In this document: positions 268 to 42,795 of the stretch, one piece after another
Layout of the letters: each line of letters starts with the position of its first letter
Position numbering within the stretch: the stretch's first letter is position 1
IMG/VR virus record: IMGVR_UViG_2526164634_000009
Strand: one strand, 5' to 3'
DNA length: 42,795 nucleotides
Source of the DNA: a virus
Lineage: Duplodnaviria > Heunggongvirae > Uroviricota > Caudoviricetes
Notes under the pieces: model-generated
What the model saw: only the letters and a program-made list of their open reading frames with translations
The model's database searches: none
Told to the model about the DNA's origin: nothing
Position numbers and translations under genes: made by a program

Positions 268-272
268 AAATT

Positions 273-292: not shown

Positions 293-295
293 GTC

Positions 296-829: not shown

Positions 830-831
830 AA

Positions 832-6843: not shown

Positions 6844-8382
6844 TTATTCAGTCGGCAGTGCTACGCGCCAGGGGAGCAGTTCGCCGACCCGGTTTATCGG
6901 CCAGTCGGCTATGACGTCAAGGACATAGCGGAGGTAGCTTTCTGGCTCCACTCCGTTCAGTTTGCACGTCCCGATCAGGCTGTACAGCAGCGCTCCCCGC
7001 TCTCCTCCATGATCCGAACCGAAGAACAGGTAGTTTTTGCGGCCCAGACTGACCATCCGCAACGCATTTTCAGCGATGTTATTGTCCGCCTCAGCCCAGC
7101 CATCATCTGCATAGTACGTCAGCGCCGGCCACTGGTTCAGGGCGTATGCGAACGCTTTCGCCAGTTCTGAGTGTCGCGACAGGGTTTTCATCTTTTCACG
7201 CAGCCAGCTTTCCAGGGATTTCAGCAGCGGTTTCGTTTTCAACTGACGTTCGGCAAGGCGCTGCTCCGCCGTCATTCCCCTTATCTCTGCCTCGATGGCG
7301 TACAGTTCGCCGATCCGTTTCAGCGCTTCCTCCGTCAGGGCTGACGGGGTGCGAACGTGCACATCGTGGATTTTACGGCGGGCGTGAGCCCAACAGGCGG
7401 CTTCCGTTATCCGGCCATCCCGGTACAGCTCGTTGAACCCGGCGTATGCATCCGCCTGCAGTACACCACTGAACCCCGCAAGATGGGTCTGCGGATGGAT
7501 GCCTTTTCTGTCCGGGCTGTAAGCGAACAACACCGCCGGCGCCAGCGTTGACCCGGCGTTACGGTCGTCACGAACGTAGGTCCATAACCGCCCGGTCTTC
7601 GTTTTCTTATTGCCTGGCAACAGCACCGGGACAGGCGTGTCATCAGCATGGAGCTTACCGTCAGTCAGCACATAGTCCTGAAGCGCTTCTTCCAGCGGTG
7701 ACAGTAGCCGGCAGCATGCATCCACCCAGCCCGACAGCAGTGAACGACTCAGCTCCACGCCCTGGCGGCCGTACATTTCAGACTGGCGGTACAGCGGGGT
7801 GTGCTCTGCATACTTTGAGATCAGCACGCGGGCCAGCAGCCCCGGTCCTGCGATACCCCGCTCGATGGGCCGTGAAGGCGCGGGGGCCTGCACGATGGCA
7901 TCGCACTGAGTACAGGCATGCTTTTCACGTACAGTCCGGATAACCCGGAAGGCGCTGCGCATCAACTCCAGCTGTTCGGCGGCATCCTCACCCAGATAGC
8001 TCAGTGAGCCTCCACATTCCGGGCAGCATGATGCTGCCGGCAGCAGCCGTTTTTCATCGCGGGGGAGTGATTCGGGGAACGGTTTGCGGGTGCGGGTTTG
8101 ACGCAGCGGGCGCTGCACGGCCGGGTCGTCAACCCGACCGGTAAGGGTATCACTTTCTTTCTGAAGTGCCTTCAGGTCAGCTTCCATCTGTGCGATACGA
8201 CGGGAGACTTTTTCGGAGCGGCTGCCGAAGTTCATCCGGCGCAGCTTATCCAGCTGTGCCTGCAGATGGTCTATTTCGCGTTCACGCTCGTTCAGCTTTT
8301 CCAGCAGGGCACGGTTCAGCGCCTCCTGTTCGGCAAGGAGACGTTTCAGTGCATTGATATCGTCAGGAAGTGAGCTGCTCAT
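6844..8382 (-). CDS. tnpC: IS66-family transposase TnpC
   Basis: 512 aa; N-terminal coiled-coil, CxxC...CxxC zinc-finger segment, DDE-type core. Confidence 0.9.
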
Positions 8383-8430
8383 ACCGGGTATATTACCAGG
8401 CTCATTCAGCGTCGACCAGGATAAAGAGGC

Positions 8431-8778
8431 TTACAACATAGTCAGGGACGTAAGCAGTCTTTTAGGCTGCCGCCAGTCGATACCTTCCAGCAGCATCGCC
8501 AGCTGTGCCGGTGTGAGGAACACTTTGCCATCCCGGGCTGACGGCCAGGCGAAGCGGCCGCGCTCCAGCCGTTTGGTCAGCAGACACAGTCCATCGCCGG
8601 TAGACCAGAGGAGCTTTACCTGACTGCCATTACGCCCACGGAAGATAAAAACGTGACCTGACATCGGATCGTCTTTCAGCGTCGTCTGCACCTTTGCCGC
8701 CAGGCCGTTGAAGCCGTTTCTCATATCGGTGATGCCAGCGACCAGCCAGATCTTTGTCCCTGATGGTAATGGGATCAA
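8431..8778 (-). CDS. tnpB: IS66-family accessory protein TnpB (Orf2)
   Basis: 115 aa, MIPLPSGTKIWLVAGITDMRNGFNGLAAKV motif typical of IS66 Orf2. Confidence 0.9.
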   Translation of the reverse strand: MIPLPSGTKIWLVAGITDMRNGFNGLAAKVQTTLKDDPMSGHVFIFRGRNGSQVKLLWSTGDGLCLLTKRLERGRFAWPSARDGKVFLTPAQLAMLLEGIDWRQPKRLLTSLTML

Positions 8779-9179
8779 CGTTTGAGCTCCCGTATCAGCA
8801 GGTTCAGGATATTTTCGCTGATGGCACCATTCAGACGGAGTGATCCGTGCCGGAACGTCACTTCACAGCTGATATTGAGTGATTCAGGTGTCGCAGCAGC
8901 TACAGGTTGTGACCGGGGGGAGGTTGTAGGGACAACATCTTCGGCATCAAGTGTTATCGGGAGCAGCTCAGGCACGTTGTTTTCTGTTGTTGAAGGAGGA
9001 CGTAGTTTTCCTTCGCGCCAGTACTGGCGCCACTTGAACAGCAAATTATCGTTGATCCCATGCTCACGAGCGAGTTGCGCTACGGAGATCTCTGGTCGAT
9101 GCGAGAGTTCAACCATTTTGATTTTGAACTCAACGGGATAATTAGGGCTTTTTTTACGCACTGCGGTTAATGATTTCAT
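8775..9179 (-). CDS. tnpA: IS66-family accessory protein TnpA (Orf1), HTH
   Basis: 134 aa, overlaps tnpB start by 4 nt as in IS66 elements. Confidence 0.85.
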   Translation of the reverse strand: MKSLTAVRKKSPNYPVEFKIKMVELSHRPEISVAQLAREHGINDNLLFKWRQYWREGKLRPPSTTENNVPELLPITLDAEDVVPTTSPRSQPVAAATPESLNISCEVTFRHGSLRLNGAISENILNLLIRELKR

Positions 9180-10008
9180 GGATAGCGTCCACCATATTTG
9201 GTGTCCACTATTCTCTCAGGAATTTCAGGATCTGCCAGACGGTGCTGAGACGACGCTTACCGATGAAACGCCGGACAGCGCCCCCATCAGCGAGGAGGCC
9301 AGCATGGCAGGCTGGTTAATCAGGCTGGTCACAGAGCCTTTCATCGCAGAAAGCGATCCCATCAGACCGCTGACAGTCTGCGTAACCCCCAGATTGTCCA
9401 CCGCATCACTGATATCATCGATGACACCGGTTACAGCTTCCATCACGGCGGTTGCCGCCGCAGTGCCATCTTTTACGGTCTGCCAGACAGAGGACAGCGT
9501 ATCTCCCAGAGAACCGGTTACAGCAACGGCCTGTGCCGGTACGGCTGCACTGGTGTCTGTCTCTGCGTCCGGGGCAGTATCCTGCAACGACGGATAAACG
9601 GTAACGGTGAACGCGTAATAATTCAGTTCATCCGCTTTAGTGCGGCATTCCCATGAATCCACCATGACGTCCACAGTGCCGAAATCAGGATGTACCAGCT
9701 CACCGCTACCCGGAGCATCAAGAGCATCCATCAGCGCACCCGCTTCATCTCTGGCTGTTTCTGCGTTGCTGTTCAGAATGCAGGCGCTGAATGTACGGGA
9801 GCGAAGCTTTTTCCCCAGGTCATTGACGCCGCCGGTATCACGTAACGGGTACTCGCGTTTAACCAGGCGACGTCCGCCAGCCTGTTTTTGCTCCTCGATG
9901 ACGAGAAACGGCACGTTACGGAACGTGCCTTTGCCGGTTGTTTTCCTGCCTCCACCGGTTTTATCCCGGACAGCATTAACGACATTTAAAGCATCTTCAA
10001 ACATGGTT

Positions 10009-26592: not shown

Positions 26593-27145
26593 GCAGAACC
26601 TCCCGACAGGCGCTGGCGAGCAGATCCAGACGGTTAAACCAGCCATTCAGATATTTCCCCTGCGAGGCACTGGATTTGATAATCCCTGCGTAATAGCGGG
26701 AACGACGCAGGAAGCACTGCAACAGCAGCCAGTCAGTATCGGCACGCAGAACGGCTGCGCGTGTGTTTTTACCGACGATGCCATCATCATCAACACCTGC
26801 TGCCGCCTGGAGGATCTGAATCGCGCGTTTAACACCGTGCTGAACGGCAGCATCAAAAACGAATAAGGAAACGCCATCAGGCCATTCGTTACACTTTGCC
26901 GCCAGCCAGTAATCACGCCAGTAGATCTGCGCCGCCTGCTCGCGGGTTAAATCCTTAATGCGGGTATCAGGTTTTCCGTCACCGTTAACATCGGTTTTGC
27001 CATCAATAACGCCGTCGCGACGGTCAGAAATACCGTATTTCGTTTCGCCGCCACGGTCGGCAGGATCATTAACATAGCCACCTTCAACATCAGGGCGTAT
27101 AACGAAATTCAGCGAATGAAGGAATGCAGGGGAAAACTCAGGCAT
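26585..27145 (-). CDS. Glycoside hydrolase family 108-like muramidase with C-terminal peptidoglycan-binding domain
   Basis: N-terminal EGGYVNDPADRGGETKYGI motif characteristic of GH108; strong RBS AGGAGGG; first gene after terminator that follows mor. Confidence 0.65.
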   Translation of the reverse strand: MPEFSPAFLHSLNFVIRPDVEGGYVNDPADRGGETKYGISDRRDGVIDGKTDVNGDGKPDTRIKDLTREQAAQIYWRDYWLAAKCNEWPDGVSLFVFDAAVQHGVKRAIQILQAAAGVDDDGIVGKNTRAAVLRADTDWLLLQCFLRRSRYYAGIIKSSASQGKYLNGWFNRLDLLASACREVLHG

Positions 27146-27204
27146 GTTGCCCTCCTGTCATGAACGTTTTATCGTCACAACAGAATATTGAGGGCGTAAA
27201 AAAA

Positions 27205-28165: not shown

Positions 28166-28183
28166 GATCGTACCTCCGGAAAG

Positions 28184-28205
28184 AGGCGGTGCTGCAACAC
28201 CGCCT
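28184..28205. other. Perfect hairpin AGGCGGTG-CTGCAA-CACCGCCT just upstream of gemA RBS
   Basis: 8-bp stem, 6-nt loop. Confidence 0.4.
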
Positions 28206-28234
28206 GAATTTACACATCAATCAGAGAGGATTTT

Positions 28235-28501
28235 ATGGAAAATAATGTACAACCTTATGATGTTGCAGGTTATGCGATTGCATCAGCACTGGTGCGCCTT
28301 CTGGTGAAGAAGGCGATCATCACCGCAGAAGAGGGCCAGGCCATTTTCAGCTCTTCAGCAGAGATTTTAAAAGATGCGCCTGCAATAAGAACAAGCCGCC
28401 GCGAAAACATGCAACTGTCAAAGATCATGGAAGACATTATCAGTTCGTTAGACCCAGATGCTGACGGATCTCAAAAGCCTCAAACACATGAGCGTCAGTA
28501 A
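28235..28501 (+). CDS. Hypothetical 88-aa protein encoded antisense to the early operon
   Basis: ATG preceded by AGAGGA; lies in a 274-bp stretch with no minus-strand ORF of 60 aa or more. Confidence 0.4.
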   Translation: MENNVQPYDVAGYAIASALVRLLVKKAIITAEEGQAIFSSSAEILKDAPAIRTSRRENMQLSKIMEDIISSLDPDADGSQKPQTHERQ

Positions 28502-28742
28502 CAATATCCTGGTCTGATAACCCCAGCCTGCGGCGGATGTACTCCTCGCGGGCTGTTTCATTTTGCAGTGCCACTACTGTTTCCAGACGATTCATTTCGC
28601 GGTTGATAATGTCACGGACTTCTCTGGCGGTGAGATTATGCTTAATACCATATTCAACGATAGCGCGAACACGTTCCAGCATCCCTTTTTCAGCCATGAC
28701 GTTATCAATATTAAGGGGAGTAAATTTATCTTCATTGTTCAT
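28440..28742 (-). CDS. Hypothetical early protein
   Basis: 100-aa ORF in operon context. Confidence 0.5.
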   Translation of the reverse strand: MNNEDKFTPLNIDNVMAEKGMLERVRAIVEYGIKHNLTAREVRDIINREMNRLETVVALQNETAREEYIRRRLGLSDQDIVTDAHVFEAFEIRQHLGLTN

Positions 28743-29062
28743 TTTGCGGCCCTCAGAATAAATTCAGGATAAAATTTCAGACTCATTTGCCGTAACACAT
28801 CCAGTGCAGCAACGGCTGCTGATTTATCGTTGCCATCAGCAATAGCGCGGAGATTTTCAATAATCCAGTGAGGACTCAGTGACTCAGCAATAATGCCAAA
28901 CCGGTACGCCATGACCTCATCAATAGCTTTTTCATGAGACGGCTCATATACAAAATTCACAAAGTCATGCACTTCTTTTTTCGGCAAACCACCGGCAATC
29001 AGCAGGGCGGCAAGCTCTTCTGATTTTGAAAATACACCATTATTCATGTCACTCACCTTCAC
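28739..29062 (-). CDS. Hypothetical early protein
   Basis: 107-aa ORF, 4-nt overlap with neighbour. Confidence 0.5.
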   Translation of the reverse strand: MKVSDMNNGVFSKSEELAALLIAGGLPKKEVHDFVNFVYEPSHEKAIDEVMAYRFGIIAESLSPHWIIENLRAIADGNDKSAAVAALDVLRQMSLKFYPEFILRAAK

Positions 29063-29231
29063 AATTCATGCACGCCGTGTCATCGCCCATATCGCAGTGG
29101 TTACATTTCTGCCCGCCACAATGAGGGCACTCTTTCAGATATTCAGGGGATTCATTACCGCAGGTCGGGCATTCCTGTTTCACCGTGGTAAATTTCCCCA
29201 GCCACGAATACGATGTTTCATTGTTTTCCAT
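29049..29231 (-). CDS. Small zinc-ribbon protein (CPTCG...CPHCG...CNHC...CMNC)
   Basis: 60-aa ORF with four Cys pairs. Confidence 0.45.
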   Translation of the reverse strand: MENNETSYSWLGKFTTVKQECPTCGNESPEYLKECPHCGGQKCNHCDMGDDTACMNCEGE

Positions 29232-29748
29232 TGTTTACCTCCGCCTGTTTTTGCGCCCGGATAAATTCGTCAGAAAGGATTTCAGTCATGCGGCCCTGTG
29301 CGGGAGTCATCCCTGTCATGACGTAAATCACATCACCAACACGGAACCACCGGAGCGGGCCGAATATTGTTGCGCTGAAATCCAGTCCCAGTGCGGGTAA
29401 GAGAGCGTCAGTACGGGCATAAGTGACCGGAATATTCTCCTGCCATATTTTCGCCAGCTCTTTTGACTGCTCCCGCAGATGTGCAGGAATGCGCGATGTT
29501 CTTGGCCTGCAACTGTTACCTGATGCGGAGCGTTGTACAGTCCACAACTCCGGCGAGAAAGGTCGCTCATTCCCCGGAAAATTCACGCCATGAAAATGAC
29601 GCCCACCAATACCTGTGCTGAATACTGACCGGCAACCACAACCCAGAACCTTATCAAGATGGCGGGCTTCTTCGCGTAGTTTCAGGCAGTCCGCCATAAA
29701 CTGGTCCCATGCCAGCAGTGCTGCGGGATTTGACGTTTTAAAAAACAT
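29218..29748 (-). CDS. Hypothetical early protein; start taken at internal ATG 29748 overlapping upstream stop
   Basis: 176 aa from MFFKTSNPAALL... Confidence 0.5.
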   Translation of the reverse strand: MFFKTSNPAALLAWDQFMADCLKLREEARHLDKVLGCGCRSVFSTGIGGRHFHGVNFPGNERPFSPELWTVQRSASGNSCRPRTSRIPAHLREQSKELAKIWQENIPVTYARTDALLPALGLDFSATIFGPLRWFRVGDVIYVMTGMTPAQGRMTEILSDEFIRAQKQAEVNNGKQ

Positions 29749-31660: not shown

Positions 31661-31930
31661 TTAATGTTTAACCGCATTCACCGGATGTGGTACTAAATCA
31701 CATTCAGCTTCCATACCCACTTTCTTCATAGTGGTCAGCATCTCATCTTTGGCCTTTTTAATAATTTCAGGAGCCATAGTCAGGACGATATTTGCCAGTA
31801 AATCATGAGGCCCGATATTTTCCGTTGGCGAGATATCTGCAAGACATGCTTTTGCATCCAGAACTTCTCTGCGCCCATTGCAACCGTCACTACTTTCCAG
31901 CCATGTAAACTCAAAGATAACTTTTGCCAT
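31661..31930 (-). CDS. Hypothetical early protein
   Basis: 89-aa ORF. Confidence 0.5.
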   Translation of the reverse strand: MAKVIFEFTWLESSDGCNGRREVLDAKACLADISPTENIGPHDLLANIVLTMAPEIIKKAKDEMLTTMKKVGMEAECDLVPHPVNAVKH

Positions 31931-32168
31931 TTTGCGTCTCCTTATTGATTCTGAATAACTGCGCTGGCTTTTACCTTCGCGCCTTTTACCTGCTTAAAGA
32001 AAACCGCGCTGCACCACGGACAACATGCAAAGGAGTCCCATACTTCATTTTCTGGTGAGCATTGCGTCATAATTTGCTCTTTGCATTTGGGGCAATTAAA
32101 TGCAGTCAGAGCCACATTGTTATTCTGTACCCGTTTAACCCATTCAATATATTTTTCAGCTTTAGTAC

Positions 32169-33225
32169 GGCTTTGTTGAATAAATCAGATTTCGGGTAAG
32201 TCTCCCCCGTAGCGGGTTGTGTTTTCAGGCAATACGCACGCTTTCAGGCATACCTGCTTTCGTCATTTTGTTCAGCGCTCGTACCAGGGCCATAGCCTCT
32301 GCAACCTGACCATCGTAGTCACGCAGTGTCAGTGAACCTCCGAACAGCTGTTTTACCCGGTACATCGCCGTTTCCGCTATCGAGCGACGGTTGTAATCTG
32401 TTGTCCATTTCCACCGCGCATTACTCCCGGTCATTCGCTGATTAGCCACTGCACGGTTACGGTCTGCATATTCACCGGGCCAGTAACCCGCACCTTTTCG
32501 GGGAGGGATAAGGGCGCTGATTTTCTTACGCCGCAGTTCATCGTGACAGAGCCGGGTGTCGTAAGCGCCGTCTGCCGATGCTGCCCTGATTTTTCTGTGA
32601 GTCTGCCGGATAAGACCCGGGAAGGCTTCTGAGTCCGTTACGTTGTTCAGCGACAGGTCTGCACAGATGATTTCATGTGTGTTGCTGTCAACGGCCAGAT
32701 GCAACTTCCGCCAGATACGACGGCGTTCTTTGCCGTGTTTTTTGACTTTCCATTCGCCTTCACCAAAGACCTTCAGCCCGGTGGAATCAATCACCAGATG
32801 CGCGATTTCACCTCGGGTGAACGTTTTGAAACTGACATTAACCGACTTTGCGCGCTTGCTGACACTGGTGTAATCCGGGCAGCGCAACGGAACATTTATC
32901 AGTGTAAAAATGGAATCAATAAAACCCTGTGCAGCCCGCAGGGTCAGCCTGAACACGCGTTTAATGACCAGAACGGTGGTGATGGCGAGATCAGAATAGC
33001 GCTGAGGTCTTCCCCGTGATGAAGGCGTTGCCGACTCATACCAGGCCTGAATAGCTTCATCATCCAGCCAGAAAGTTATGGAGCCACGGTTGATGAGGGC
33101 TTTATTGTAGGTGGGCCAGTTGGTGATTTTGAACTTTTGCTTTGCCACGGAACGGTCTGCGTTGTCGGGAAGATACGTGATCTGATCCTTCAACTCAGCA
33201 AAAGTTCGATTTATTCAACAAAGCC
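32169..33225 (-). mobile_element. IS903-like element (IS5 family), 1057 bp, 9-bp target duplication CTTTAGTAC at 32160-32168 and 33226-33234
   Basis: Perfect 18-bp terminal inverted repeats GGCTTTGTTGAATAAATC, single transposase ORF, identical 9-bp flanking repeats. Confidence 0.9.
32225..33193 (-). CDS. tnp: IS903-type transposase (DDE); true start may be internal
   Basis: ORF contains FKITNWPTYNKALINRGSITFWLDDEAIQAWY region that I recognise as IS903 transposase. Confidence 0.9.
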   Translation of the reverse strand: MKDQITYLPDNADRSVAKQKFKITNWPTYNKALINRGSITFWLDDEAIQAWYESATPSSRGRPQRYSDLAITTVLVIKRVFRLTLRAAQGFIDSIFTLINVPLRCPDYTSVSKRAKSVNVSFKTFTRGEIAHLVIDSTGLKVFGEGEWKVKKHGKERRRIWRKLHLAVDSNTHEIICADLSLNNVTDSEAFPGLIRQTHRKIRAASADGAYDTRLCHDELRRKKISALIPPRKGAGYWPGEYADRNRAVANQRMTGSNARWKWTTDYNRRSIAETAMYRVKQLFGGSLTLRDYDGQVAEAMALVRALNKMTKAGMPESVRIA

Positions 33226-33240
33226 CTTTAGTACACATCG

Positions 33241-33468
33241 TTATCTCCAGATAATCTGGCAACCATTAAGACGGGCCGTCCATACAGAACGGGCCACCCC
33301 GGACTTATGCTCCATAATTCTGACCGCGTTTTTTACCAGTTCCACCGGTGGGTAAGTGATTTCAAGAATCGGACGCGCCACGCCGAGATATGATTCATTT
33401 ACATGACTCCCGCGCGCCTGTAACCAGTTCTGCGCATCCGTTGCCATTTTTATATTTCGGGCCATCAT
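33241..33468 (-). CDS. Small early protein immediately downstream of B (position of Mu kil)
   Basis: 75-aa ORF; position-based only. Confidence 0.4.
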
Positions 33469-33483
33469 AATTTCTTCTCCTTC

Positions 33484-34422
33484 TTAATTACGCAGCAGCG
33501 TTGAAATATCAACGTCCAGGTCTAATTCACGGAAAGCCTGACGCAGATAATCTTCGTTAACACGCTCACCTTTACCGTGAGCCGTCATGGCGGCAAGGCG
33601 AAGTGAATGATTCAGAATGCGAAGCGCACCTGGTTTCTGCGCAATCTGCTGTAATAACTCCAGTTCTTTTTCACCGTTAATCTGCCAGGCATCCGCAATA
33701 GCTTTTACATCGGCTTTTTTGGTTTTATTAATTGCAGTGCGCTTTGCAATACGGGAAAACAGACGGGCAAATTCAACCGTTCTGTTACCCCCCGTCATAT
33801 TTGAATAAACCCGGTGATTTCCCATCAGCACAAGGCCAATACGGGTTGATTCCTGTAACAGGCGGAGTTCTTCCAGAACCTCGGCACCAAGATGATCAGC
33901 TTCGTCGATGATAACCAGCCCCTGTGTACCTTCAAGGCGACGTCGCAGGGCGCGGGAGAGCGGCCCTTTACGGCGTGGTGCGTCATTCATTCCCAGCTCA
34001 AACGCCAGTTCAGTAAGACATTCCAGAACGCTGGCACAGGATGGCGTAATGGTGATCATCCAGACATTGTTATTGGTGCGGCGATATTCACGGGCCGCTT
34101 CGGTTTTACCCACACCAGGATTGCCACATACAACAGCAATACTTTCAGTCAGGCTGGCAAAACGCATACTTGTCCAGATTTGTTTTACCGTCTGCGTTTC
34201 CACAAAGCGGGGCGGCTCAGGTAGTTCTGCAACTGCATGATATTTTTCCAGCCAGCGTTGCAGAATTTGTGAAACACGCTCGTTATCCCCGTTGTACTTA
34301 TCATTGATAAAACTACTGATAGTTCCGGTAGAAAGCCCGCTCTCAAGAGCAATTTGTTTAAAGGTGGTTTCTTCATTTTCTACAAGCGTGCGCAGTTCTG
34401 CGCGAATATCGGAAATATTCAT
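33484..34422 (-). CDS. B: Transposition ATPase B (MuB-like AAA+)
   Basis: 312 aa, Walker A GNPGVGKT, follows A. Confidence 0.85.
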   Translation of the reverse strand: MNISDIRAELRTLVENEETTFKQIALESGLSTGTISSFINDKYNGDNERVSQILQRWLEKYHAVAELPEPPRFVETQTVKQIWTSMRFASLTESIAVVCGNPGVGKTEAAREYRRTNNNVWMITITPSCASVLECLTELAFELGMNDAPRRKGPLSRALRRRLEGTQGLVIIDEADHLGAEVLEELRLLQESTRIGLVLMGNHRVYSNMTGGNRTVEFARLFSRIAKRTAINKTKKADVKAIADAWQINGEKELELLQQIAQKPGALRILNHSLRLAAMTAHGKGERVNEDYLRQAFRELDLDVDISTLLRN

Positions 34423-34460
34423 CTGAATAACCTCGTAATTAAATTTTGTTTAAACGTTAA

Positions 34461-36554
34461 TTAAATGGCTTTTTTACGTCTGTTCTGTTCCAGAATATCC
34501 AGCGAATGATTCAGATATTCATCACGCTCAGTTTCGTATTCATCATCATGCTCTTCCTCACACCTCAACGGCTGAACGGTCACCACATTACCAACAGGGC
34601 GATAAACATTATCCAGCCAGGGTTCTATCGTTTTTTGTTCAATAACCTGAATACCTTCATCCTCAGCATCACGTATTTTTTCCTCAGCACGCTTGCGCAT
34701 TCCTTTAATACGTTGCTGTTGTTTGTGATATTCAGCCGTAACAGGAAAGGCTGCGCGTTTATTGCCGTTCCATATCGCCTCACAGATAAAGCTACCGTCC
34801 TTACGGCGTACCGTAATTCGCTCGGCATCGTGAATGTCATAGCTGATAAGTACCTTGCGACCATGTTCATCACGTAGCTCTGGCGCGTAGTAAATATTGT
34901 TCAGCCACTGGATTTCGCAGCGTCTTACCGGACGCTCCACCATCGGGCGGAACATGTCACGCAGCTCAATATCACTCAGCCACTCAATTTCAGTGTCTTC
35001 TTCCGCTAAGCGTTTTTTTCTGAACTCTGCCGGGCTGTAATGTTTTCCGTTTGGTTTCATCGGCAATTCAGAATGTGGGCGGTTGTTGTACCACTCCACC
35101 CCCTCACGGATAGCCTCAATCAGTTCTGACCAAGACGGCAGCTCGCGCATTGCGGCTTTCTGACGGGCGCTCAGTGGCTTGTCCTGTTGCAGGGCATTAA
35201 ACGCTGAACGCAGATCACGATTAAGTACTCGCAACGATTCCCGGTCAGCCCCCTTGCCGAAATAGGTGCGATACCTCCTTGCTATACGCATCGGTAACGT
35301 CCGGTTCAGGCGCTCAATAATGCCGCGTCCCTGCGGATTTCCCGCAATACCAGTGGGGTGGTTAATCCCCAGGCGGGGCAGAATCCCGACGATCTCTTTA
35401 TCCAGCATATCTGCCGTTTCACCGGAACCATTATCCGAGTAATACAGGAATGGTTTTCCGTGATTGCGAATGCCGTGTTGTATCGCCCCGGCAACAGCGA
35501 ACACGTTCTCCGCAAGATCAAGACTCCAGCCAACCACAAACCGGGTTCCACCGTCGATCACAAACGTAACTTCCGGTGAAAATGGACGCCCGTGAACCGG
35601 ATGCGCACATTTCAGCTTCATACCGTGACCGTCACCAATCCAGACATAATTCACCGGCATAGCTGTCCAGTCGCGGCGGGTGAATCCTTCAAGCTGACGG
35701 TATTCACTGCCGGTAACGCGCCCTTTTTGTTTCACCACTTCCGGCAGTTTTTTCATGGCATACCGGACAACATCATAGGAAGGCATCACCTCCAGCATGT
35801 ATGGTTCGTCCGCATGGCGACGCTGCCAATCAGCGACAAAATCCTCGTATGCTTCTGACATAGGCCTGCCGTTAGCCTGACGATACTGCGCCAGAAATTC
35901 AGGCAGCCAGCTAATTTCTTCCGGTTTTATTTCGTCGCGCTTTCCTGGTGCCAGTAACAGCAATCGTTCTGCGGCATTCTGTGCTTTGTTAAACGCAGCT
36001 ATCCAACGTTTGAGCGTAATTGCGCTCAGAGTTCGCTCTTTCCCTTTACGGGCATTAGCAGTAATGACCAAAGATTCCAGGCGTTCTTCCAGGTTACCCT
36101 GCGCTAACCGCGACACAATAAAACGTATAGCGCTGGCACAACTGAATCCCGGCTCCTGGCTAATTCGTAGAACTTCACAGACAAGAGCAATACGCGCTTC
36201 TGCAACTTTACGTTGATTTTCCGTAAGCGCATTCAGACGCTCTTCTACCAATTGTGGCGAACCGCGATATGCCTCAACAGGCTGTACAACATTTTGTTTG
36301 CGTTCACGCTTTACAGGAGGCTGGGTAGTTATCTCCTGCGGGGCGGTTGCCATCAGTTGAGCTACATGGCGCTCACGTAACGCCCGTTGTGTAACCGGAG
36401 GGAGGCAGTCGATGCTGTATTCAATGGTTTTTGAACCCGCACGTTTGCGCCTGAAATGCTCAGATGAGGCCAGTTTCCTTATGGAATACCGCACCCCTTG
36501 CGCAGTTCCCGGCATACCCGGTAGCCCTACAAGCTCATTAACTGACACAAACAT
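34461..36554 (-). CDS. A: DDE transposase A (MuA-like)
   Basis: 697 aa; C-terminal tail DDEYETERDEYLNHSLDILEQNRRKKAI matches Mu A as remembered, N-terminal DNA-binding region diverged. Confidence 0.9.
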   Translation of the reverse strand: MFVSVNELVGLPGMPGTAQGVRYSIRKLASSEHFRRKRAGSKTIEYSIDCLPPVTQRALRERHVAQLMATAPQEITTQPPVKRERKQNVVQPVEAYRGSPQLVEERLNALTENQRKVAEARIALVCEVLRISQEPGFSCASAIRFIVSRLAQGNLEERLESLVITANARKGKERTLSAITLKRWIAAFNKAQNAAERLLLLAPGKRDEIKPEEISWLPEFLAQYRQANGRPMSEAYEDFVADWQRRHADEPYMLEVMPSYDVVRYAMKKLPEVVKQKGRVTGSEYRQLEGFTRRDWTAMPVNYVWIGDGHGMKLKCAHPVHGRPFSPEVTFVIDGGTRFVVGWSLDLAENVFAVAGAIQHGIRNHGKPFLYYSDNGSGETADMLDKEIVGILPRLGINHPTGIAGNPQGRGIIERLNRTLPMRIARRYRTYFGKGADRESLRVLNRDLRSAFNALQQDKPLSARQKAAMRELPSWSELIEAIREGVEWYNNRPHSELPMKPNGKHYSPAEFRKKRLAEEDTEIEWLSDIELRDMFRPMVERPVRRCEIQWLNNIYYAPELRDEHGRKVLISYDIHDAERITVRRKDGSFICEAIWNGNKRAAFPVTAEYHKQQQRIKGMRKRAEEKIRDAEDEGIQVIEQKTIEPWLDNVYRPVGNVVTVQPLRCEEEHDDEYETERDEYLNHSLDILEQNRRKKAI

Positions 36555-36556
36555 TT

Positions 36557-36793
36557 TTATGCCACCTTACGAGCGTAACGGCTGGGCCAGATCTCCTCCG
36601 GCGCAACACCAATAGCATCAGCAATAATGCGCTCATATTTTGGGCATTTGCGGTACAGGGCATTCTTTAAAGAATCCTGGTTTAAACCGGCTTCAATGGA
36701 CAGAGAGCGTAAAGTAAAACCTTTTACATGCACCGCCGCGACAACATGCGCGGGGTGCCAGTCCTGTTTAACAACTTCATTTATAGACATCAT
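36557..36793 (-). CDS. ner: Ner-like DNA-binding regulator (start taken at internal ATG 36793)
   Basis: C-terminal IIADAIGVAPEEIWPSRY resembles Ner family; AAGGA RBS before internal ATG. Confidence 0.7.
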   Translation of the reverse strand: MMSINEVVKQDWHPAHVVAAVHVKGFTLRSLSIEAGLNQDSLKNALYRKCPKYERIIADAIGVAPEEIWPSRYARKVA

Positions 36794-36973
36794 TCGTTTA
36801 TCCTTAAAAGTTATCTGTGCGGATAACACCGCCGGATAATCTCTGCGGATAAAGTATTGATCCACATGTGGCGCATGTAAAGCAAAAATTTGATTTTCTT
36901 TTGCCTGATGTGGATCATCTGTGTTTTCTATTGAAATTATCCTTTTGTATCAATTAGATAAGAGGAAAGAAAA
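36794..36973. promoter_or_regulatory. Divergent early/repressor promoter-operator region
   Basis: Three CGGATAA repeats 13 bp apart (36818-36852) and inverted repeat TGATCCACAT / ATGTGGATCA (36858-36867, 36909-36918) between divergent ner and c. Confidence 0.5.
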
Positions 36974-37519
36974 ATGGATAAGCTGAAAGGAAAGTCACTT
37001 TCTTTGCCGGAAGTGACAAAAGAAAGTATCCCGGAGCGTTTGAGAGAATTAATTGGAAAAAGAAGTGTAAGGGCTGCTGCGAAAGATTGGGGGTTGTCTT
37101 TTTCTACTTTAAACAATTACCTGACGCGAGGTACTGAACCTTCACTCAGTGTGGCTCGGCAGATAGCTGCAATTGAAGGGGTTACTATCGAATGGATATG
37201 TGGATCACATGATGATTCATATGAGAATCACCCAATTTCAACTAACACGCATAATGAGAATACAAAACTCATTATGAACATCATTAACGCCTTGGATGCA
37301 AAGGATATTGAGCGACTATCTAAGACTCTTGCCCTCAATGGTGCTAAGTATCTGACTCAAATGTTGGAACCCGAAAATCAAGGCTTACTGCGTCTTGAAG
37401 GACGAAAACGTGTCGCCGCGCTGCTATTAGATGATTTACCTGATGAGCGTATCAGAGAGATTTTGGAAGAAATTGAGAGCAGCAAACTCTCAAGTAGTGT
37501 AAAATCGAGAGCGGGCTAG
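36974..37519 (+). CDS. c: Prophage repressor (c-like, HTH)
   Basis: 181 aa, divergent from ner, HTH-like segment near N-terminus. Confidence 0.7.
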   Translation: MDKLKGKSLSLPEVTKESIPERLRELIGKRSVRAAAKDWGLSFSTLNNYLTRGTEPSLSVARQIAAIEGVTIEWICGSHDDSYENHPISTNTHNENTKLIMNIINALDAKDIERLSKTLALNGAKYLTQMLEPENQGLLRLEGRKRVAALLLDDLPDERIREILEEIESSKLSSSVKSRAG

Positions 37520-37745: not shown

Positions 37746-38077
37746 CCTCTCTATACGACTATGAGGAGAAATTGCTTATTGCCAGATGGGAACTGACAGC
37801 AGAACAGGCTGTTACACAGCAGTTAAAAAATGAGGTGTCAAAAGGAAAACTGATTGACACCGGGTTCTGTATTTTTGCCCTCAGTAAGCTGGCAATGGCG
37901 TTATCCAGTACGCTTGATTCCATCCCTTTATCCATGCAGCGACAGTTTCCTGATTTAACACCGCGCCATCTTGACCATCTGAAAACCATTATTGCGAAGG
38001 GGGCAAATCAGTGTGCGCGGGCAGGGGATAAATTACCGGATTTACTCGATGAATATATCAGAGCAACAACTGAATAA
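37742..38077 (+). pseudogene. nu1: Lambda-like terminase small subunit nu1, 3' fragment only (truncated by Mu-like prophage insertion)
   Basis: Frame opens only at 37742 after in-frame TAA; translated C-terminal part resembles lambda Nu1 C-terminus and overlaps A start as in lambda. Confidence 0.7.
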
Positions 38078-39977
38078 TATGATGGCTGCCGTTTCGGTTG
38101 CGCTGCAGCCTCTGGTCAGGGTTGTACCAATGACGGCAGTTGAATGGGCTGATCAAAATTATTATCTGCCTAAAGAATCTTCATATGGTGAGGGAGAATG
38201 GAAAACGCTGCCATTCCAGATCGCCATTATGAACTGTATGGGTAACGACCAGGTTCGCACGGTTAACCTGATTAAATCTGCCCGTGTTGGCTATACAAAG
38301 ATGTTGCTGGGGGTGGTCGGGTATTTTATTGAGCATAAATCCCGAAACAGTCTGCTTTTTCAGCCCACGGATTCTGCCGCTGAAGATTTTATGAAGTCTC
38401 ACGTGGAGGCGACGATTCGGAACGTGCCATGCCTGAAAGACCTTTCCCCATGGCTGGGTCGTAAACATCGTGACAATACTCTCACGCTGAAACGCTTTTC
38501 ATCGGGCGTCGGTTTCTGGTGCCTGGGCGGCGCTGCCGCCAAAAACTACCGTGAAAAATCCGTGGACGTGGTCTGCTATGACGAACTTTCCTCGTTCGAG
38601 CCGGATGTCGAAAAAGAGGGCTCGCCAACCCTGCTGGGGGATAAGCGTATTGAGGGGTCGGTGTGGCCAAAATCCATTCGCGGCTCGACGCCTAAAATCA
38701 AAGGCACCTGCCAGATCGAAAAAGCCGCTAACGAGTCGGCGCATTTTATGCGTTTTTATGTGCCCTGCCCGCACTGTGGGGAGGAGCAGTATCTGAAATT
38801 TGGCGATGAGTCCACGCCTTTTGGGCTTAAATGGGAGAAGGACAGCCCTGAAAGTGTTTTCTACCTCTGTGAACATCATGGCTGCGTGATCCATCAGTCT
38901 GAGCTTGACCAGAGCAACGGGCGGTGGATCTGTGAAAACACGGGCATGTGGACCCGTGACGGTCTGACGTTTTTCAGCGCCCGGGGTGATGAAATTCCGC
39001 CGCCGCGCTCCATCATGTTCCATATCTGGACGGCGTACAGTCCGTTCACCACCTGGGTACAGATTGTCTATGACTGGCTGGATGCACTGAAAGATCCCAA
39101 CGGCCTGAAAACCTTTGTGAACACCACGCTGGGCGAGACCTGGGAAGAGGCCGTGGGCGAAAAACTCGATCACCAGGTACTGATGGATAAGGTGGTGCGT
39201 TACACGGCGGCGGTGCCTGCCCGGGTGGTTTATCTGACGGCGGGCATTGACTCGCAGCGAAACCGTTTTGAGATGTATGTCTGGGGATGGGCTCCGGGAG
39301 AGGAAGCCTTTCTGGTGGATAAAATCATCATTATGGGGCGTCCTGATGAGGAAGAGACGCTGTTACGTGTGGATGCGGCGATCAACAAAAAATACCGCCA
39401 TGCGGATGGCACCGAAATGACTATTTCCCGTGTCTGCTGGGACACCGGGGGGATCGATGGTGAAATTGTTTATCAGAGATCAAAAAAACACGGTGTTTTC
39501 CGGGTGCTGCCGGTAAAAGGCGCATCTGTCTATGGCAAGCCGGTGATCACCATGCCAAAAACCCGCAATCAGCGGGGCGTGTATCTGTGTGAAGTGGGAA
39601 CGGATACCGCAAAAGAAATTCTCTATGCCCGTATGAAAGCCGATCCCACGCCTGCGGATGAAGCCACGTCGTATGCCATCCGTTTTCCTGATGATCCGGA
39701 GATTTTTTCGCAGACAGAGGCGCAGCAACTGGTGGCGGAAGAGCTGGTGGAGAAGTGGGAAAAAGGAAAGATGCGTCTGCTGTGGGATAACAAAAAGCGG
39801 CGTAACGAAGCGCTGGACTGCCTGGTGTATGCCTACGCGGCATTACGTGTGTCCGTGCAACGCTGGCAGCTTGATCTGGCTGTACTGGCAAAATCCCGGG
39901 AAGAAGAGACGACCCGGCCAACCCTGAAAGAACTGGCAGCGAAGCTGTCCGGAGGAGTGAATGGTTACAGTCGCTGA
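38049..39977 (+). CDS. A: Lambda-like terminase large subunit gpA
   Basis: Start at MNISEQQ (38049); conserved terminase blocks including VGYTKMLLGV, GDKRIEGSVWPKSIRGSTPK, WTAYSPFTTWVQIV. Confidence 0.9.
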   Translation: MNISEQQLNNMMAAVSVALQPLVRVVPMTAVEWADQNYYLPKESSYGEGEWKTLPFQIAIMNCMGNDQVRTVNLIKSARVGYTKMLLGVVGYFIEHKSRNSLLFQPTDSAAEDFMKSHVEATIRNVPCLKDLSPWLGRKHRDNTLTLKRFSSGVGFWCLGGAAAKNYREKSVDVVCYDELSSFEPDVEKEGSPTLLGDKRIEGSVWPKSIRGSTPKIKGTCQIEKAANESAHFMRFYVPCPHCGEEQYLKFGDESTPFGLKWEKDSPESVFYLCEHHGCVIHQSELDQSNGRWICENTGMWTRDGLTFFSARGDEIPPPRSIMFHIWTAYSPFTTWVQIVYDWLDALKDPNGLKTFVNTTLGETWEEAVGEKLDHQVLMDKVVRYTAAVPARVVYLTAGIDSQRNRFEMYVWGWAPGEEAFLVDKIIIMGRPDEEETLLRVDAAINKKYRHADGTEMTISRVCWDTGGIDGEIVYQRSKKHGVFRVLPVKGASVYGKPVITMPKTRNQRGVYLCEVGTDTAKEILYARMKADPTPADEATSYAIRFPDDPEIFSQTEAQQLVAEELVEKWEKGKMRLLWDNKKRRNEALDCLVYAYAALRVSVQRWQLDLAVLAKSREEETTRPTLKELAAKLSGGVNGYSR

Positions 39978-40167
39978 ACTGCAGGCGCTGCGTCAGGCGC
40001 GCCTTGATTTATTAACCGGTAAACGGGTGGTGTCTGTCCAGAAAGATGGTCGCAGAATTGAATATACGGCGGCTTCTCTGGATGAGCTTAACCGGGCGAT
40101 CAATGATGCGGAGTCGGTACTGGGGACAACCCGACGTCGCCGTCGTCCGCTGGGAGTGAGGTTATGA
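39961..40167 (+). CDS. W: Head-tail joining protein gpW
   Basis: 68 aa, between A and B. Confidence 0.8.
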   Translation: MVTVAELQALRQARLDLLTGKRVVSVQKDGRRIEYTAASLDELNRAINDAESVLGTTRRRRRPLGVRL

Positions 40168-41756
40168 AACGAACGCCTGTCCTGATTGATGTGAACGGCG
40201 TTCCGCTTCGTGAGAGTCTCAGCTACAACGGGGGCGGCGCAGGATTTGGCGGGCAAATGGCGGAGTGGTTGCCACCGGCGCAGAGTGTCGATGCGGCCCT
40301 GCTGCCCGCGTTGCGTCTGGGGAATGCCCGGGCAGATGATCTGGTGCGCAATAACGGGATAGCGGCCAATGCGGTGGCCCTGCATAAGGATCATATTGTC
40401 GGGCATATGTTTCTGATCAGCTACCGTCCGAACTGGCGCTGGCTGGAGATGCGGGAGACTGCGGCAAAAAGTTTTGTCGATGAGGTGGAGGCGGCCTGGT
40501 CGGAATACGCCGAAGGGATGTCTGGCGAGATCGACGTGGAAGAGAAACGCACGTTTACGGAATTTATTCGTGAAGGTGTGGGCGTTCATGCGTTTAACGG
40601 CGAAATCTTTGTGCAGCCGGTCTGGGATACGGAGAGCACGCAACTGTTTCGTACGCGTTTTAAAGCCGTGAGTCCGAAACGGGTGGACACGCCAGGACAC
40701 GGTATGGGGAACCGTTTTCTGCGGGCCGGTGTGGAGGTCGATCGATATGGCCGTGCCGTTGCGTACCATATCTGTGAGGATGATTTTCCTCGCTCCGGGA
40801 GTGGACGATGGGAACGGATCCCGCGTGAACTTCCCACCGGGCGTCCGGCCATGCTGCATATTTTCGAGCCGGTGGAGGACGGGCAGACCCGTGGGGCTAA
40901 TCAGTTTTACAGCGTCATGGAACGGCTGAAGATGCTGGATTCCCTGCAGGCAACACAGCTTCAGTCGGCCATTGTGAAAGCCATGTATGCAGCGACGATT
41001 GAAAGTGAACTTGATACCGAAAAGGCCTTTGAATATATCGCCGGCGCGCCACAGGAGCAGAAGGATAATCCGCTTATTAATATTCTGGAGAAGTTCTCCA
41101 GCTGGTATGACACGAATAACGTGACACTGGGCGGTGTCAAAATTCCGCACCTTTTCCCTGGTGATGATCTGAAACTACAGACTGCGCAGGATTCAGACAA
41201 TGGATTTTCTGCGCTTGAACAGGCGCTGCTGCGGTATATCGCCGCCGGTCTTGGCGTTTCCTACGAACAGTTGTCCCGTGATTACTCGAAGGTCAGTTAT
41301 TCAAGTGCCAGGGCCTCTGCCAATGAGTCGTGGCGCTATTTTATGGGGCGGCGAAAATTTATTGCGGCCCGGCTGGCCACGCAGATGTTTTCCTGCTGGC
41401 TGGAAGAGGCACTTCTTCGGGGGATTATCCGTCCGCCACGGGCGCGTTTTGATTTTTATCAGGCGCGATCAGCCTGGTCACGGGCAGAGTGGATTGGTGC
41501 CGGAAGAATGGCCATTGACGGGCTCAAGGAGGTTCAGGAATCGGTGATGCGCATTGAGGCCGGACTGAGCACGTATGAGAAAGAGCTGGCGCTGATGGGC
41601 GAGGATTATCAGGACATTTTCCGCCAGCAGGTCAGGGAATCTGCAGAGCGGCAAAAAGCCGGACTCTCACGTCCGGTGTGGATAGCGCAGGCGTATCAGC
41701 AGCAGATAGCGGAGAGTCGCAGGCCGGAAGAGGAGACAACACCACGTGAGACGTAA
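40164..41756 (+). CDS. B: Lambda-like portal protein gpB
   Basis: 530 aa. Confidence 0.9.
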   Translation: MKRTPVLIDVNGVPLRESLSYNGGGAGFGGQMAEWLPPAQSVDAALLPALRLGNARADDLVRNNGIAANAVALHKDHIVGHMFLISYRPNWRWLEMRETAAKSFVDEVEAAWSEYAEGMSGEIDVEEKRTFTEFIREGVGVHAFNGEIFVQPVWDTESTQLFRTRFKAVSPKRVDTPGHGMGNRFLRAGVEVDRYGRAVAYHICEDDFPRSGSGRWERIPRELPTGRPAMLHIFEPVEDGQTRGANQFYSVMERLKMLDSLQATQLQSAIVKAMYAATIESELDTEKAFEYIAGAPQEQKDNPLINILEKFSSWYDTNNVTLGGVKIPHLFPGDDLKLQTAQDSDNGFSALEQALLRYIAAGLGVSYEQLSRDYSKVSYSSARASANESWRYFMGRRKFIAARLATQMFSCWLEEALLRGIIRPPRARFDFYQARSAWSRAEWIGAGRMAIDGLKEVQESVMRIEAGLSTYEKELALMGEDYQDIFRQQVRESAERQKAGLSRPVWIAQAYQQQIAESRRPEEETTPRET

Positions 41757-42795
41757 TCTTTCACACATTATTGCCGCAGCATTCAATGAACCGCTGCTTC
41801 TGGAGCCCGCCTATGCGCGGGTTTTCTTTTGCGCGCTCGGGCGCGAGATGGGGGCAGCAAGTCTTTCGGTACCACAACAGCAGGTACAGTTTGATGCTCC
41901 CCGGAATGCTGGCTGAAACGGACGAGTACATGGCCGGAGGTAAACGACCGGCCCGTGTTTACAGGGTGGTGAACGGTATTGCTGTACTGCCGGTGACCGG
42001 CACGCTGGTGCACCGGCTGGGGGGTATGCGGCCATTTTCCGGAATGACAGGCTATGACGGTATTGTCGCCTGTCTTCAGCAGGCAATGGCGGATAGCCAG
42101 GTGCGGGGCGTACTGCTGGACATTGACAGTCCGGGCGGGCAGGCCGCCGGCGCGTTTGACTGCGCTGACATGATTTACCGCCTCCGTCAGCAGAAGCCGG
42201 TCTGGGCACTGTGCAATGACACGGCCTGTTCTGCAGCCATGCTGCTGGCGTCGGCCTGCTCCCGACGGCTGGTTACCCAGACATCCCGTATCGGCTCCAT
42301 TGGCGTGATGATGAGCCATGTCAGCTATGCCGGTCATCTGGCGCAGGCCGGTGTGGATATCACGCTGATTTACTCAGGGGCGCACAAGGTGGATGGCAAT
42401 CAGTTTGAAGCCTTACCGGCAGAGGTTCGCCAGGACATGCAGCAGCGCATTGATGCGGCGCGCCGGATGTTTGCCGAAAAAGTGGCCATGTTTACCGGTC
42501 TGTCTGTTGATGCCGTCACGGGAACAGAGGCCGCCGTTTTTGAAGGTCAGTCCGGCATTGATGCCGGGCTGGCGGATGAATTAGTCAATGCGTCGGATGC
42601 CATCAGTGTGATGGCCACGGCGCTGAACAGTAATGTCAGAGGAGGCACTATGCCGCAATTAACTGCAACGGAAGCCGCCGCGCAGGAGAACCAGCGAGTG
42701 ATGGGGATCCTGACATGCCAGGAAGCGAAAGGACGTGAACAGCTTGCCACGATGCTGGCAGGACAACAGGGCATGAGCGTTGAACAGGCCCGGGC
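41746..42795 (+). CDS. C: Lambda-like head protease/scaffold gpC, 3' end outside window; apparent +1 frame change near 41880-41915
   Basis: N-terminal 56 codons (VRRNLSHIIAAAFNEPLLLEPAYARVFFCAL...) stop at TGA 41914-41916; remainder (RVVNGIAVLPVTGTLV... to window end) is in the +1 frame. Confidence 0.6.

What the first reader, a model, noticed from the sequence alone, without database searches (positions are those of the whole stretch)
32160..33238. IS903-like element inserted four codons into a small zinc-ribbon early gene next to B
Perfect 18-bp terminal inverted repeats GGCTTTGTTGAATAAATC, 1057-bp length and a 9-bp CTTTAGTAC duplication define the element. A GGAG-ATG start at 33238 is separated by the IS from the rest of its frame (32168-31942), which encodes a roughly 76-aa protein with CxxC and CCPWC motifs. 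This is a second independent IS hit in the same prophage, in the region where Mu carries kil and other host-interaction genes.
Basis: seen in the sequence. Interest (0 to 1): 0.55.

Follow-up and report, generated by a model that had tools for sequence, protein, structure and literature searches.

The report
IS903-type insertion in Mu gene 6
A common 1057-bp jumping gene of the IS903 group has recently landed in a small, function-unknown early gene (the counterpart of phage Mu gene 6) of a Mu-like prophage in E. coli; this is real, but it is an ordinary gene knockout.

Summary
Window 32169-33225 is an intact 1057-bp IS903-group (IS5-family) insertion sequence. It has perfect 18-bp terminal inverted repeats, an intact 307-aa DDE transposase on the minus strand and a perfect 9-bp target duplication, CTTTAGTAC. 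It is 99.8% identical to copies on Klebsiella plasmids, 95.6% to the original IS903B (Rts1) and 94.9% to IS102 (pSC101).

Removing 32169-33234 restores a 76-aa ORF. That ORF is 100% identical to an annotated gene of the viable Mu-like Yersinia phage vB_YpM_5 and 78% identical to Mu gp6 (Mup06, formerly E5). The empty site occurs at 100% identity over 735 bp in two E. coli genomes and two phages.

gp6 is a conserved CPxC...CPxC zinc-ribbon protein of unknown function. The insertion leaves a 7-codon stump and a promoterless remnant. A polar effect on the downstream early genes, including mor, is plausible but untested.

A second IS, of the IS66 family, does interrupt tail gene N. All other mapped prophage genes are intact.

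Verdict: a known element and a known kind of event; low interest.

The parts
32160..32168 (.). Target-site duplication, left copy (CTTTAGTAC)
   Evidence: Exact 9-bp direct repeat directly abutting the IS ends.
32169..33225 (-). IS903-group (IS5-family) insertion sequence, 1057 bp. The transposase is oriented like the Mu early operon.
   Evidence: Full-length, gap-free matches: 99.8% to Klebsiella plasmid copies, 99.5% in E. coli, 95.55% to IS903B of Rts1 and 94.9% to IS102 of pSC101.
32169..32186 (+). Terminal inverted repeat at the transposase-distal end
   Evidence: Perfect 18-bp IR. The terminal 30 nt are identical to IS903B and IS102.
33208..33225 (-). Terminal inverted repeat at the transposase-proximal end
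   Evidence: Perfect 18-bp IR.
32225..33148 (-). Transposase CDS, 307 aa, GTG start (VAKQKF...)
   Evidence: Pfam DDE_Tnp_1_5 (4e-38) and DDE_Tnp_1 (3.8e-33). The exact 307-aa sequence is on record on 67 contigs as 'IS5 family transposase'. It shares 299/307 aa with the IS903B transposase. D121, D193 and E259 are present.
33226..33234 (.). Target-site duplication, right copy (CTTTAGTAC)
33215..33238 (-). 5' stump of the Mu gene 6 orthologue. The ATG is at 33238; four native codons are followed by read-through into the IR, giving MCTKGLC*.
   Evidence: Translation. A GGAG lies 6 nt upstream of the ATG.
31942..32168 (-). 3' remnant of the Mu gene 6 orthologue (rest of codon 5 to the stop), now without a start codon or RBS
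   Evidence: In-silico excision restores the 76-aa ORF. It is 100% identical to QKE55391.1 of phage vB_YpM_5 and 59/76 identical to Mu Mup06. phrog_3786 match at 1.9e-39.
33241..33468 (-). kil (intact), between B and the disrupted gene
   Evidence: phrog_2743 'Kil protein', 2.8e-43. Identical to Mu Kil apart from one extra N-terminal Met.
33484..34422 (-). Mu B (intact, 312 aa)
   Evidence: ORF. Annotated as the B / AAA ATPase gene in matching records.
31661..31930 (-). Next early gene downstream (gene 7 position; phrog_2230), intact, with its own GGAG
   Evidence: It is 89/89 identical to the vB_YpM_5 protein.

Best explanation
An intact and probably still active IS903-group insertion sequence (IS5 family, IS903B-like) transposed by the usual DDE-transposase mechanism into the orthologue of Mu gene 6 (Mup06/E5) in a vB_YpM_5-like Muvirus prophage in E. 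coli. That mechanism makes a staggered 9-bp cut in the target and fills the gaps, which creates the CTTTAGTAC duplication. The insertion lies after nucleotide 13 of the coding sequence. It separates the RBS, the ATG and four codons from the remaining 72 codons. Translation from the native start ends after 7 codons inside the IR, and the remnant has no start signal, so this is a null allele of gp6. gp6 is a small early 'semi-essential region' protein built from an N-terminal helix and a four-cysteine zinc ribbon; its function is unknown. The IS lies within the long early (Pe) transcript, in the same orientation. By inference only, it may therefore also reduce expression of the downstream early genes (gene 7 ... 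gam ... gemA, mor). The event is recent: the TSD and IRs are perfect, the flanks are 100% identical to empty sites, and every other mapped prophage gene is intact.
For: Anatomy of the element.

IS identity:
- 99.8% full-length matches on plasmids.
- 95.55% to IS903B of Rts1, which PGAP names 'IS5-like element IS903B family transposase', and 94.9% to IS102. Neither alignment has gaps, and the ends are identical.
- DDE Pfam domains.
- The literature gives 1057 bp and 9-bp TSDs for IS903B and IS903 (PMC10513040, PMC13618097, PMC12670165).

Target gene:
- The restored ORF is open.
- It is identical to the annotated vB_YpM_5 gene and 78% identical to Mu Mup06, in the same position after kil.
- The phrog_3786 match covers the full length.
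- The empty site is 100% identical over 735 bp in 2 E. coli chromosomes and 2 phages.
- The intact protein is seen on at least 1000 contigs.

Zinc ribbon: C27, C30, C51 and C54 are conserved in 52-54 of 54 relatives. The AF2 model has pLDDT 86, with helix 4-17 and five strands.

Recency and integrity: the window is collinear with the viable phage at 99.1% over 22.9 kb without gaps. None of 40 mapped CDSs has an internal stop.
Against: Nothing contradicts the insertion itself.

Three points remain unshown:
- Whether this copy is transpositionally active.
- Whether there is any polar effect. The consensus scan found no intrinsic-terminator-like site on the transcribed strand inside the IS, and Rho-dependent polarity cannot be predicted here.
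- What losing gp6 means biologically, since its function is unknown.

The exact isoform name is uncertain. At 95.6% nt and 97.4% aa identity, the element is nearly as far from the original IS903B as from IS102. IS903 of Tn903 and ISfinder could not be consulted.
Confidence: 0.95

Rival explanations
1. The real gene is only the 57-aa ORF from the GTG at 32115. On this reading the IS sits in an intergenic or leader region and does not destroy a coding sequence.
For: the ORF listing reports a 57-aa GTG ORF at 31942-32115.
Against: All homologues are about 76 aa and start M-C/S-x-K-A-E-K-Y-I-E-W, with Y8, I9 and W11 invariant. The PHROG profile aligns from residue 1. Mu, PhiR68_1 and vB_YpM_5 annotate 231-bp genes. 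The AF2 model places a confident helix at residues 4-17. No Shine-Dalgarno sequence precedes the GTG.
Confidence: 0.02
2. The insertion was selected, not neutral. It domesticates the prophage either by polar silencing of the distal early operon (no Mor, so no middle or late expression and no lysis) or by removing a gp6 activity that harms the lysogen.
For: The IS lies inside the single long early transcript that runs from ner onward (PMC3820752). It introduces about 1.3 kb of foreign and then untranslated RNA before gene 7. A second IS independently kills tail gene N. Low-level Pe transcription occurs in lysogens (PMC3820752).
Against: A, B and kil lie upstream of the IS and stay intact, so induction would still be lethal to the host. 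No intrinsic terminator was detected on the sense strand within the IS. No other sequenced complete E. coli genome carries this insertion and no species-representative genome carries the left junction, so there is no sign of a selective sweep. IS903-group elements are simply abundant: 1994 of 5426 E. coli genomes have one.
Confidence: 0.1
3. The IS is an assembly artefact: a repeat-induced misjoin placed an IS copy here.
For: IS903-group copies are multi-copy repeats in many Enterobacterales genomes, and such repeats are a common cause of misassembly.
Against: Both junctions are precise at the IR termini. They are flanked by a perfect 9-bp duplication of a sequence that is present once in empty sites. 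That is the signature of real transposition, not of a misjoin.
Confidence: 0.02

Closest known systems
IS903B (original copy in plasmid Rts1, within PTn2680) and the copies called IS903B in Klebsiella
   Same: 1057 bp; the terminal 30 nt are identical, including the 18-bp IR; 9-bp TSD; single 307-aa DDE transposase; no indels in the alignment. IS903B is well known for knocking out genes such as mgrB, cirA and wbaZ with 9-bp TSDs (PMC10513040, PMC13618097, PMC9769513).
   Different: 47 nucleotide differences (95.55% identity) and 8 amino-acid differences from the Rts1 copy. It is much closer (99.8%) to a plasmid-borne Klebsiella lineage.
IS102 (pSC101)
   Same: Same length, same ends, same organisation. 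It is a member of the IS903 group, whose members are more than 94% identical to each other (PMC12670165).
   Different: 54 nucleotide differences (94.9% identity); 297/307 aa identity.
Phage Mu gene 6 (Mup06, gp6, formerly E5), semi-essential early region
   Same: Same position (B - kil - gene 6 - gene 7), same 76-aa length, 59/76 identical, identical C-terminal 26 residues, same CPxC...CPWC cysteines.
   Different: The central part has diverged (residues 14-26, among others). Here the gene is split by the IS. Neither version has a known function; no paper on Mup06 was found.
IS insertions in the Mu early region (classical Mu 'X' mutants, IS1 in B); recalled from memory, not checked here
   Same: An insertion sequence lands in the Pe early operon of a Mu prophage, with possible polar effects on distal early genes.
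   Different: As I recall them, the X mutations lie in B, upstream of kil, and abolish killing. Here the IS lies downstream of A, B and kil, which remain intact, so the killing functions should persist.

Membership tests
IS903 group, IS5 family | Element length about 1057 bp | tested here: met
   32169-33225 is 1057 bp. The literature gives 1057 bp for IS903 and IS903B (PMC10513040, PMC12670165).
IS903 group, IS5 family | Perfect 18-bp terminal inverted repeats with the group's sequence | tested here: met
   GGCTTTGTTGAATAAATC at both ends. The terminal 30 nt are identical to IS903B (Rts1) and IS102 (pSC101).
IS903 group, IS5 family | 9-bp target-site duplication | tested here: met
   CTTTAGTAC is present twice, directly flanking the IS, and once in empty sites.
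IS903 group, IS5 family | Single transposase ORF (307 aa) with a DDE domain of the IS4/IS5 type | tested here: met
   PF13737 (4e-38) and PF01609 (3.8e-33). D121, D193 and E259 are present. That these residues form the IS903 triad is from memory.
IS903 group, IS5 family | More than 94% nucleotide identity to named group members | tested here: met
   95.55% to IS903B and 94.9% to IS102, full length and ungapped. The criterion is quoted from PMC12670165.
IS903 group, IS5 family | Transposition activity of this copy | not testable with these tools
   The ORF and ends are intact and the TSD is perfect, which is consistent with a recent event, but no experiment was possible.
IS903B isoform specifically | ISfinder isoform rule (above 95% nt and/or above 98% aa identity to the reference; the rule is recalled from memory) | tested here: inconclusive
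   95.55% nt identity passes marginally; 97.4% aa identity (299/307) does not. IS903 of Tn903, IS602 and the ISfinder references were not available.
Mu gp6 / Mup06 family (phrog_3786; precomputed Pfam PF26833) | Full-length sequence similarity to Mu gp6 | tested here: met
   59/76 identical to NP_050610.1. phrog_3786 at 1.9e-39 over residues 1-76. All close homologues carry PF26833.1.
Mu gp6 / Mup06 family (phrog_3786; precomputed Pfam PF26833) | Synteny: the gene immediately downstream of kil in the early operon of a Muvirus | tested here: met
   The order A, B, kil, gene 6, gene 7 is the same as in Mu, PhiR68_1 and vB_YpM_5.
Zinc ribbon (four-cysteine) | Two CxxC knuckles conserved across the family | tested here: met
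   C27 in 52/54, C30 in 53/54, C51 in 54/54 and C54 in 54/54 relatives. C2, C38 and C50 are not conserved.
Zinc ribbon (four-cysteine) | Match to a curated zinc-ribbon family above threshold | tested here: not met
   zf-LITAF-like scores 16.4 bits (cut-off 23.8) and Zn_ribbon_Elf1 scores 14.4 bits (cut-off 29.8). There was no significant PDB fold match.
Zinc ribbon (four-cysteine) | Metal binding | not testable with these tools
   This needs purified protein and metal analysis.

The most novel reading that the evidence does not exclude
The IS903-type insertion is not neutral. Together with the IS66-family hit in N, it could mark step-wise domestication of a Mu-like prophage nested inside a lambdoid prophage. 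It would do so either by polar loss of Mor-dependent late expression or by removing gp6. On this reading gp6 would be a zinc-ribbon host-takeover or anti-defence factor that is costly to the lysogen during leaky Pe transcription.
Probability: 0.07. Interest if true: 0.4.

Novelty: already known. Interest (0 to 1): 0.1.

Why it matters
It matters little beyond annotation. It identifies one of two lesions that make this Mu-like prophage defective or altered, and it provides a natural null allele of Mu gene 6, whose function is still unknown. It also illustrates that IS903-group elements, which are best known for knocking out mgrB, cirA and capsule genes in Klebsiella, also erode prophages in E. 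coli. If gene 6 or the polarity of this insertion were studied, the strain could serve as a ready-made mutant. No new kind of element or mechanism is involved.

Tried and rejected
- **Junction searches.** An exact search for the left junction in 185,579 species-representative genomes found nothing. No complete E. coli genome in RefSeq carries the insertion. The source genome and any clonal spread therefore stay unknown.
- **Function of gp6 from families.** Pfam gave only sub-threshold zinc-ribbon hits. PHROGs lists the family as 'unknown function'.
- **Function of gp6 from structure.** Foldseek against the PDB gave nothing significant (best E 0.72). BFVD returned only uncharacterised phage proteins.
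- **Function of gp6 from fusions.** Ten longer distant relatives were scanned for fused domains. Only one carried any, a dATP/dGTP pyrophosphohydrolase, which is not a consistent signal.
- **Function of gp6 from the literature.** Searches for 'Mup06' and for gp6/kil/semi-essential found nothing about its function.
- **Polarity.** The consensus scan found no terminator-like site on the transcribed strand inside the IS and no outward promoter, so nothing can be concluded.
- **Tool restrictions.** The restored protein itself could not be handed to the structure or representative searches. A 95%-identical homologue alignment was used instead.
- **Reference records.** AP004237 was not in the collection; the RefSeq copy NC_003905.1 was used.
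- **Rejected readings.** The standalone 57-aa ORF and the assembly artefact are both rejected (see the rival explanations). A composite transposon is also rejected, because the IR occurs only twice in the window.

Full report

Yes. Reading window 31700-33500 and the repeat finder show the sequence GGCTTTGTTGAATAAATC at 32169-32186 and its exact reverse complement at 33208-33225. These bound a 1057-bp segment. Directly outside each end lies CTTTAGTAC (32160-32168 and 33226-33234). A script confirmed each coordinate. The 18-mer occurs nowhere else in the 42.8-kb window even with three mismatches allowed (expected 0.02 matches). The 9-mer occurs only at these two places (expected 0.09). Between the repeats, on the minus strand, there is one long ORF (32225-33193 from the first possible start).

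**2. What is the element?**

- The ORF carries the two Pfam DDE transposase domains typical of IS4/IS5-type elements: PF13737 at 4e-38 and PF01609 at 3.8e-33.
- Read from the GTG at 33148, the protein is 307 aa. This exact sequence is already on record on 67 contigs as 'IS5 family transposase' of Klebsiella and other Enterobacterales.
- The whole 1057 bp match more than 5000 plasmid records at full length, at up to 99.8% identity (mostly Klebsiella).
- They also match 1994 of 5426 complete E. coli genomes, at up to 99.5% identity.
- Two named reference copies gave ungapped full-length alignments: 95.55% identity (47 differences) to the original IS903B in plasmid Rts1, and 94.9% (54 differences) to IS102 in pSC101. 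NCBI names the Rts1 transposase 'IS5-like element IS903B family transposase'.
- The terminal 30 nt at both ends are identical in all three elements.
- Transposase identity is 299/307 to IS903B and 297/307 to IS102. Aspartates 121 and 193 and glutamate 259 are present. I recall these as the IS903 DDE triad, but that is from memory.
- The literature gives 1057 bp and 9-bp target duplications for IS903 and IS903B, and describes IS903, IS102 and IS602 as members of the IS903 group of the IS5 family that are more than 94% identical to each other (PMC10513040, PMC13618097, PMC12670165).

The element is therefore an intact member of the IS903 group. 'IS903B-like' is a fair label, but the exact isoform could not be fixed without ISfinder.

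**3. What did it hit?**

On the minus strand the sequence reads ...ATTATCTGGAGATAACG ATG TGT ACT AAA G|IS. Removing 32169-33234 (the IS plus one copy of the duplication) gives an open 76-codon frame.

The 735-bp 'empty site' rebuilt in this way is found as follows:

- At 100% identity in two E. coli chromosomes (FDAARGOS_1059 and O111:H2 strain 12A).
- At 100% identity in the Mu-like Yersinia phages vB_YpM_5 and vB_YpM_6.
- At 91-99% identity in other Muvirus genomes, including Mu itself over part of the query.

In vB_YpM_5 the corresponding 231-bp gene is annotated (QKE55391.1), and its product is identical to the restored protein. In Mu the gene at this position is Mup06 (gp6, formerly E5), which is 76 aa and 59/76 identical. 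The PHROG family phrog_3786 (unknown function) aligns over residues 1-76 at 1.9e-39.

The ORF between B (33484-34422) and the disrupted gene is kil (33241-33468). It matches phrog_2743 at 2.8e-43 and is identical to Mu Kil apart from one extra N-terminal Met.

- The joined frame has no stop codon.
- Homologues are full-length 76-aa genes that begin at the upstream ATG, with Y8, I9 and W11 invariant.

**4. The target protein.**

The word-indexed search found only eight 90%-identity clusters, all about 76 aa. A profile search over 1.84 billion representatives found 217 relatives at E ≤ 0.001, mostly standalone proteins of 70-100 aa.

In an alignment of 54 of them, C27, C30, C51 and C54 are present in 52-54 sequences, as CPxC...CPxC. 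C2, C38 and C50 are not conserved.

An AlphaFold2 model of a 95%-identical homologue is confident (mean pLDDT 86). It shows an N-terminal helix (residues 4-17) followed by five strands. That fits a helix-plus-zinc-ribbon protein.

Curated zinc-ribbon Pfam families match only below threshold. No solved structure matches significantly. The only fold relatives are uncharacterised phage proteins. Domain fusions in longer relatives give no consistent clue. I found no paper on the function of Mup06. The semi-essential region is described as 'largely uncharacterised' (PMC3820752).

**5. Consequences.**

Shown by the sequence:

- Translation from the native ATG now reads MCTKGLC and stops inside the IR.
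- The 72-codon remnant has no start codon or Shine-Dalgarno sequence.
- This is therefore a null allele of gene 6.

Inferred only:

- The IS sits inside the long early transcript driven from Pe and has the same orientation.
- Early transcription must therefore cross about 1.06 kb of IS, whose transposase is probably poorly translated, and then 227 nt of untranslated remnant before it reaches gene 7.
- Rho-dependent polarity on gene 7 through gam, gemA and mor is plausible. It would curtail middle and late expression.
- The consensus scan found no intrinsic terminator on that strand within the IS, so this point remains untested.
- A, B and kil lie upstream and are intact, so the lethal early functions should not be affected.

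**6. Context.**

- The window is a vB_YpM_5-like Muvirus prophage in minus orientation. It is collinear with that viable phage at 99.1% over 22.9 kb without a single gap (9254-32168) and at 98.6% over 33226-36862.
- All 40 phage CDSs that could be mapped are open in the window.
- The only other interruption is a 2454-bp IS66-family element at 6807-9260. It has the three typical ORFs, GTAAGCGT... termini and an 8-bp duplication, CGATGAAA. It lies in tail / DNA-circularisation gene N (Mup43).
- Because N is a tail gene (annotated as tail/DNA circulation protein), the prophage is probably already unable to make infectious particles.
- The prophage's left end (about 37750-37755) lies inside the small terminase subunit gene of a lambdoid prophage that is 99.5% identical to ones in STEC-type E. 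coli.

**7. Comparison with what is known, and verdict.**

Every defining feature of the IS903 group that could be tested is met. The target is a bona fide orthologue of Mu gene 6. IS903B-type knockouts with 9-bp duplications are reported routinely (mgrB, cirA, wbaZ), and IS erosion of prophages is commonplace.

This particular insertion was not found in any complete E. coli genome or in any species-representative genome, so it is probably a private, recent event.

The finding is real but ordinary: a known element, a known mechanism and low interest. The residual interest lies only in having a natural null allele of a function-unknown Mu early gene, and in the untested possibility of polarity on mor.

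Noticed in passing
window 6807-9260 (TSD at 6799-6806 and 9261-9268): A second insertion sequence: a 2454-bp IS66-family element. Its three minus-strand ORFs (134, 115 and 512 aa) match HTH_Tnp_1, TnpB_IS66 and DDE_Tnp_IS66. It has GTAAGCGT... termini and an 8-bp duplication, CGATGAAA. It interrupts the Mu N (Mup43) tail / DNA-circularisation gene.
   Followed up: partly
window ~37750-42795: The left end of the Mu-like prophage abuts DNA that is 99.5% identical to the head region of lambdoid prophages of STEC-type E. coli. The junction falls inside the terminase small-subunit gene, so this is a prophage nested within a prophage. The exact terminal nucleotide of Mu was not pinned down.
   Followed up: partly
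window 1-1796: The window starts inside the invertible G segment. Compared with the Mu and PhiR68_1 references, this segment is inverted relative to the rest of the prophage, and it is only about 85-93% identical to relatives. The right end of the prophage (gin, com, mom, attR) lies outside the window.
   Followed up: no
window 36863-37393 (ORF 36974-37519, + strand, 181 aa): The repressor (c) region has no nucleotide match to vB_YpM_5, Mu or PhiR68_1, although the neighbouring A gene matches at 98.6%. This suggests a different immunity allele, that is, a mosaic left end.
   Followed up: no
L003 1743-1973 (E. coli FDAARGOS_1059, NZ_CP066032.1): The intact gene 6 orthologue, identical to the restored protein, is left unannotated by PGAP in this RefSeq genome. 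The same gene is called in phage records.
   Followed up: no
protein P0017 (representative of the closest 90% cluster): This Salmonella variant of gp6 has C30Y, which replaces one of the four conserved zinc-ribbon cysteines. It may be a naturally inactivated allele.
   Followed up: no
proteins: All close gp6 homologues carry a precomputed Pfam assignment, PF26833.1. The local Pfam-A copy did not return this family for the restored protein at E up to 0.1, so I could not read its name or description.
   Followed up: no
protein P0116 (237 aa, distant gp6 relative): The gp6-like zinc-ribbon domain (residues 163-218) follows a dATP/dGTP pyrophosphohydrolase domain (PF04447, 9.7e-23). This is a single case and may be a gene-call fusion.
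   Followed up: no
window 26594-27179 and 28176-29263: These stretches of the semi-essential / middle region match vB_YpM_5 but not Mu or PhiR68_1, which illustrates the mosaicism of this region among Muviruses.
   Followed up: no
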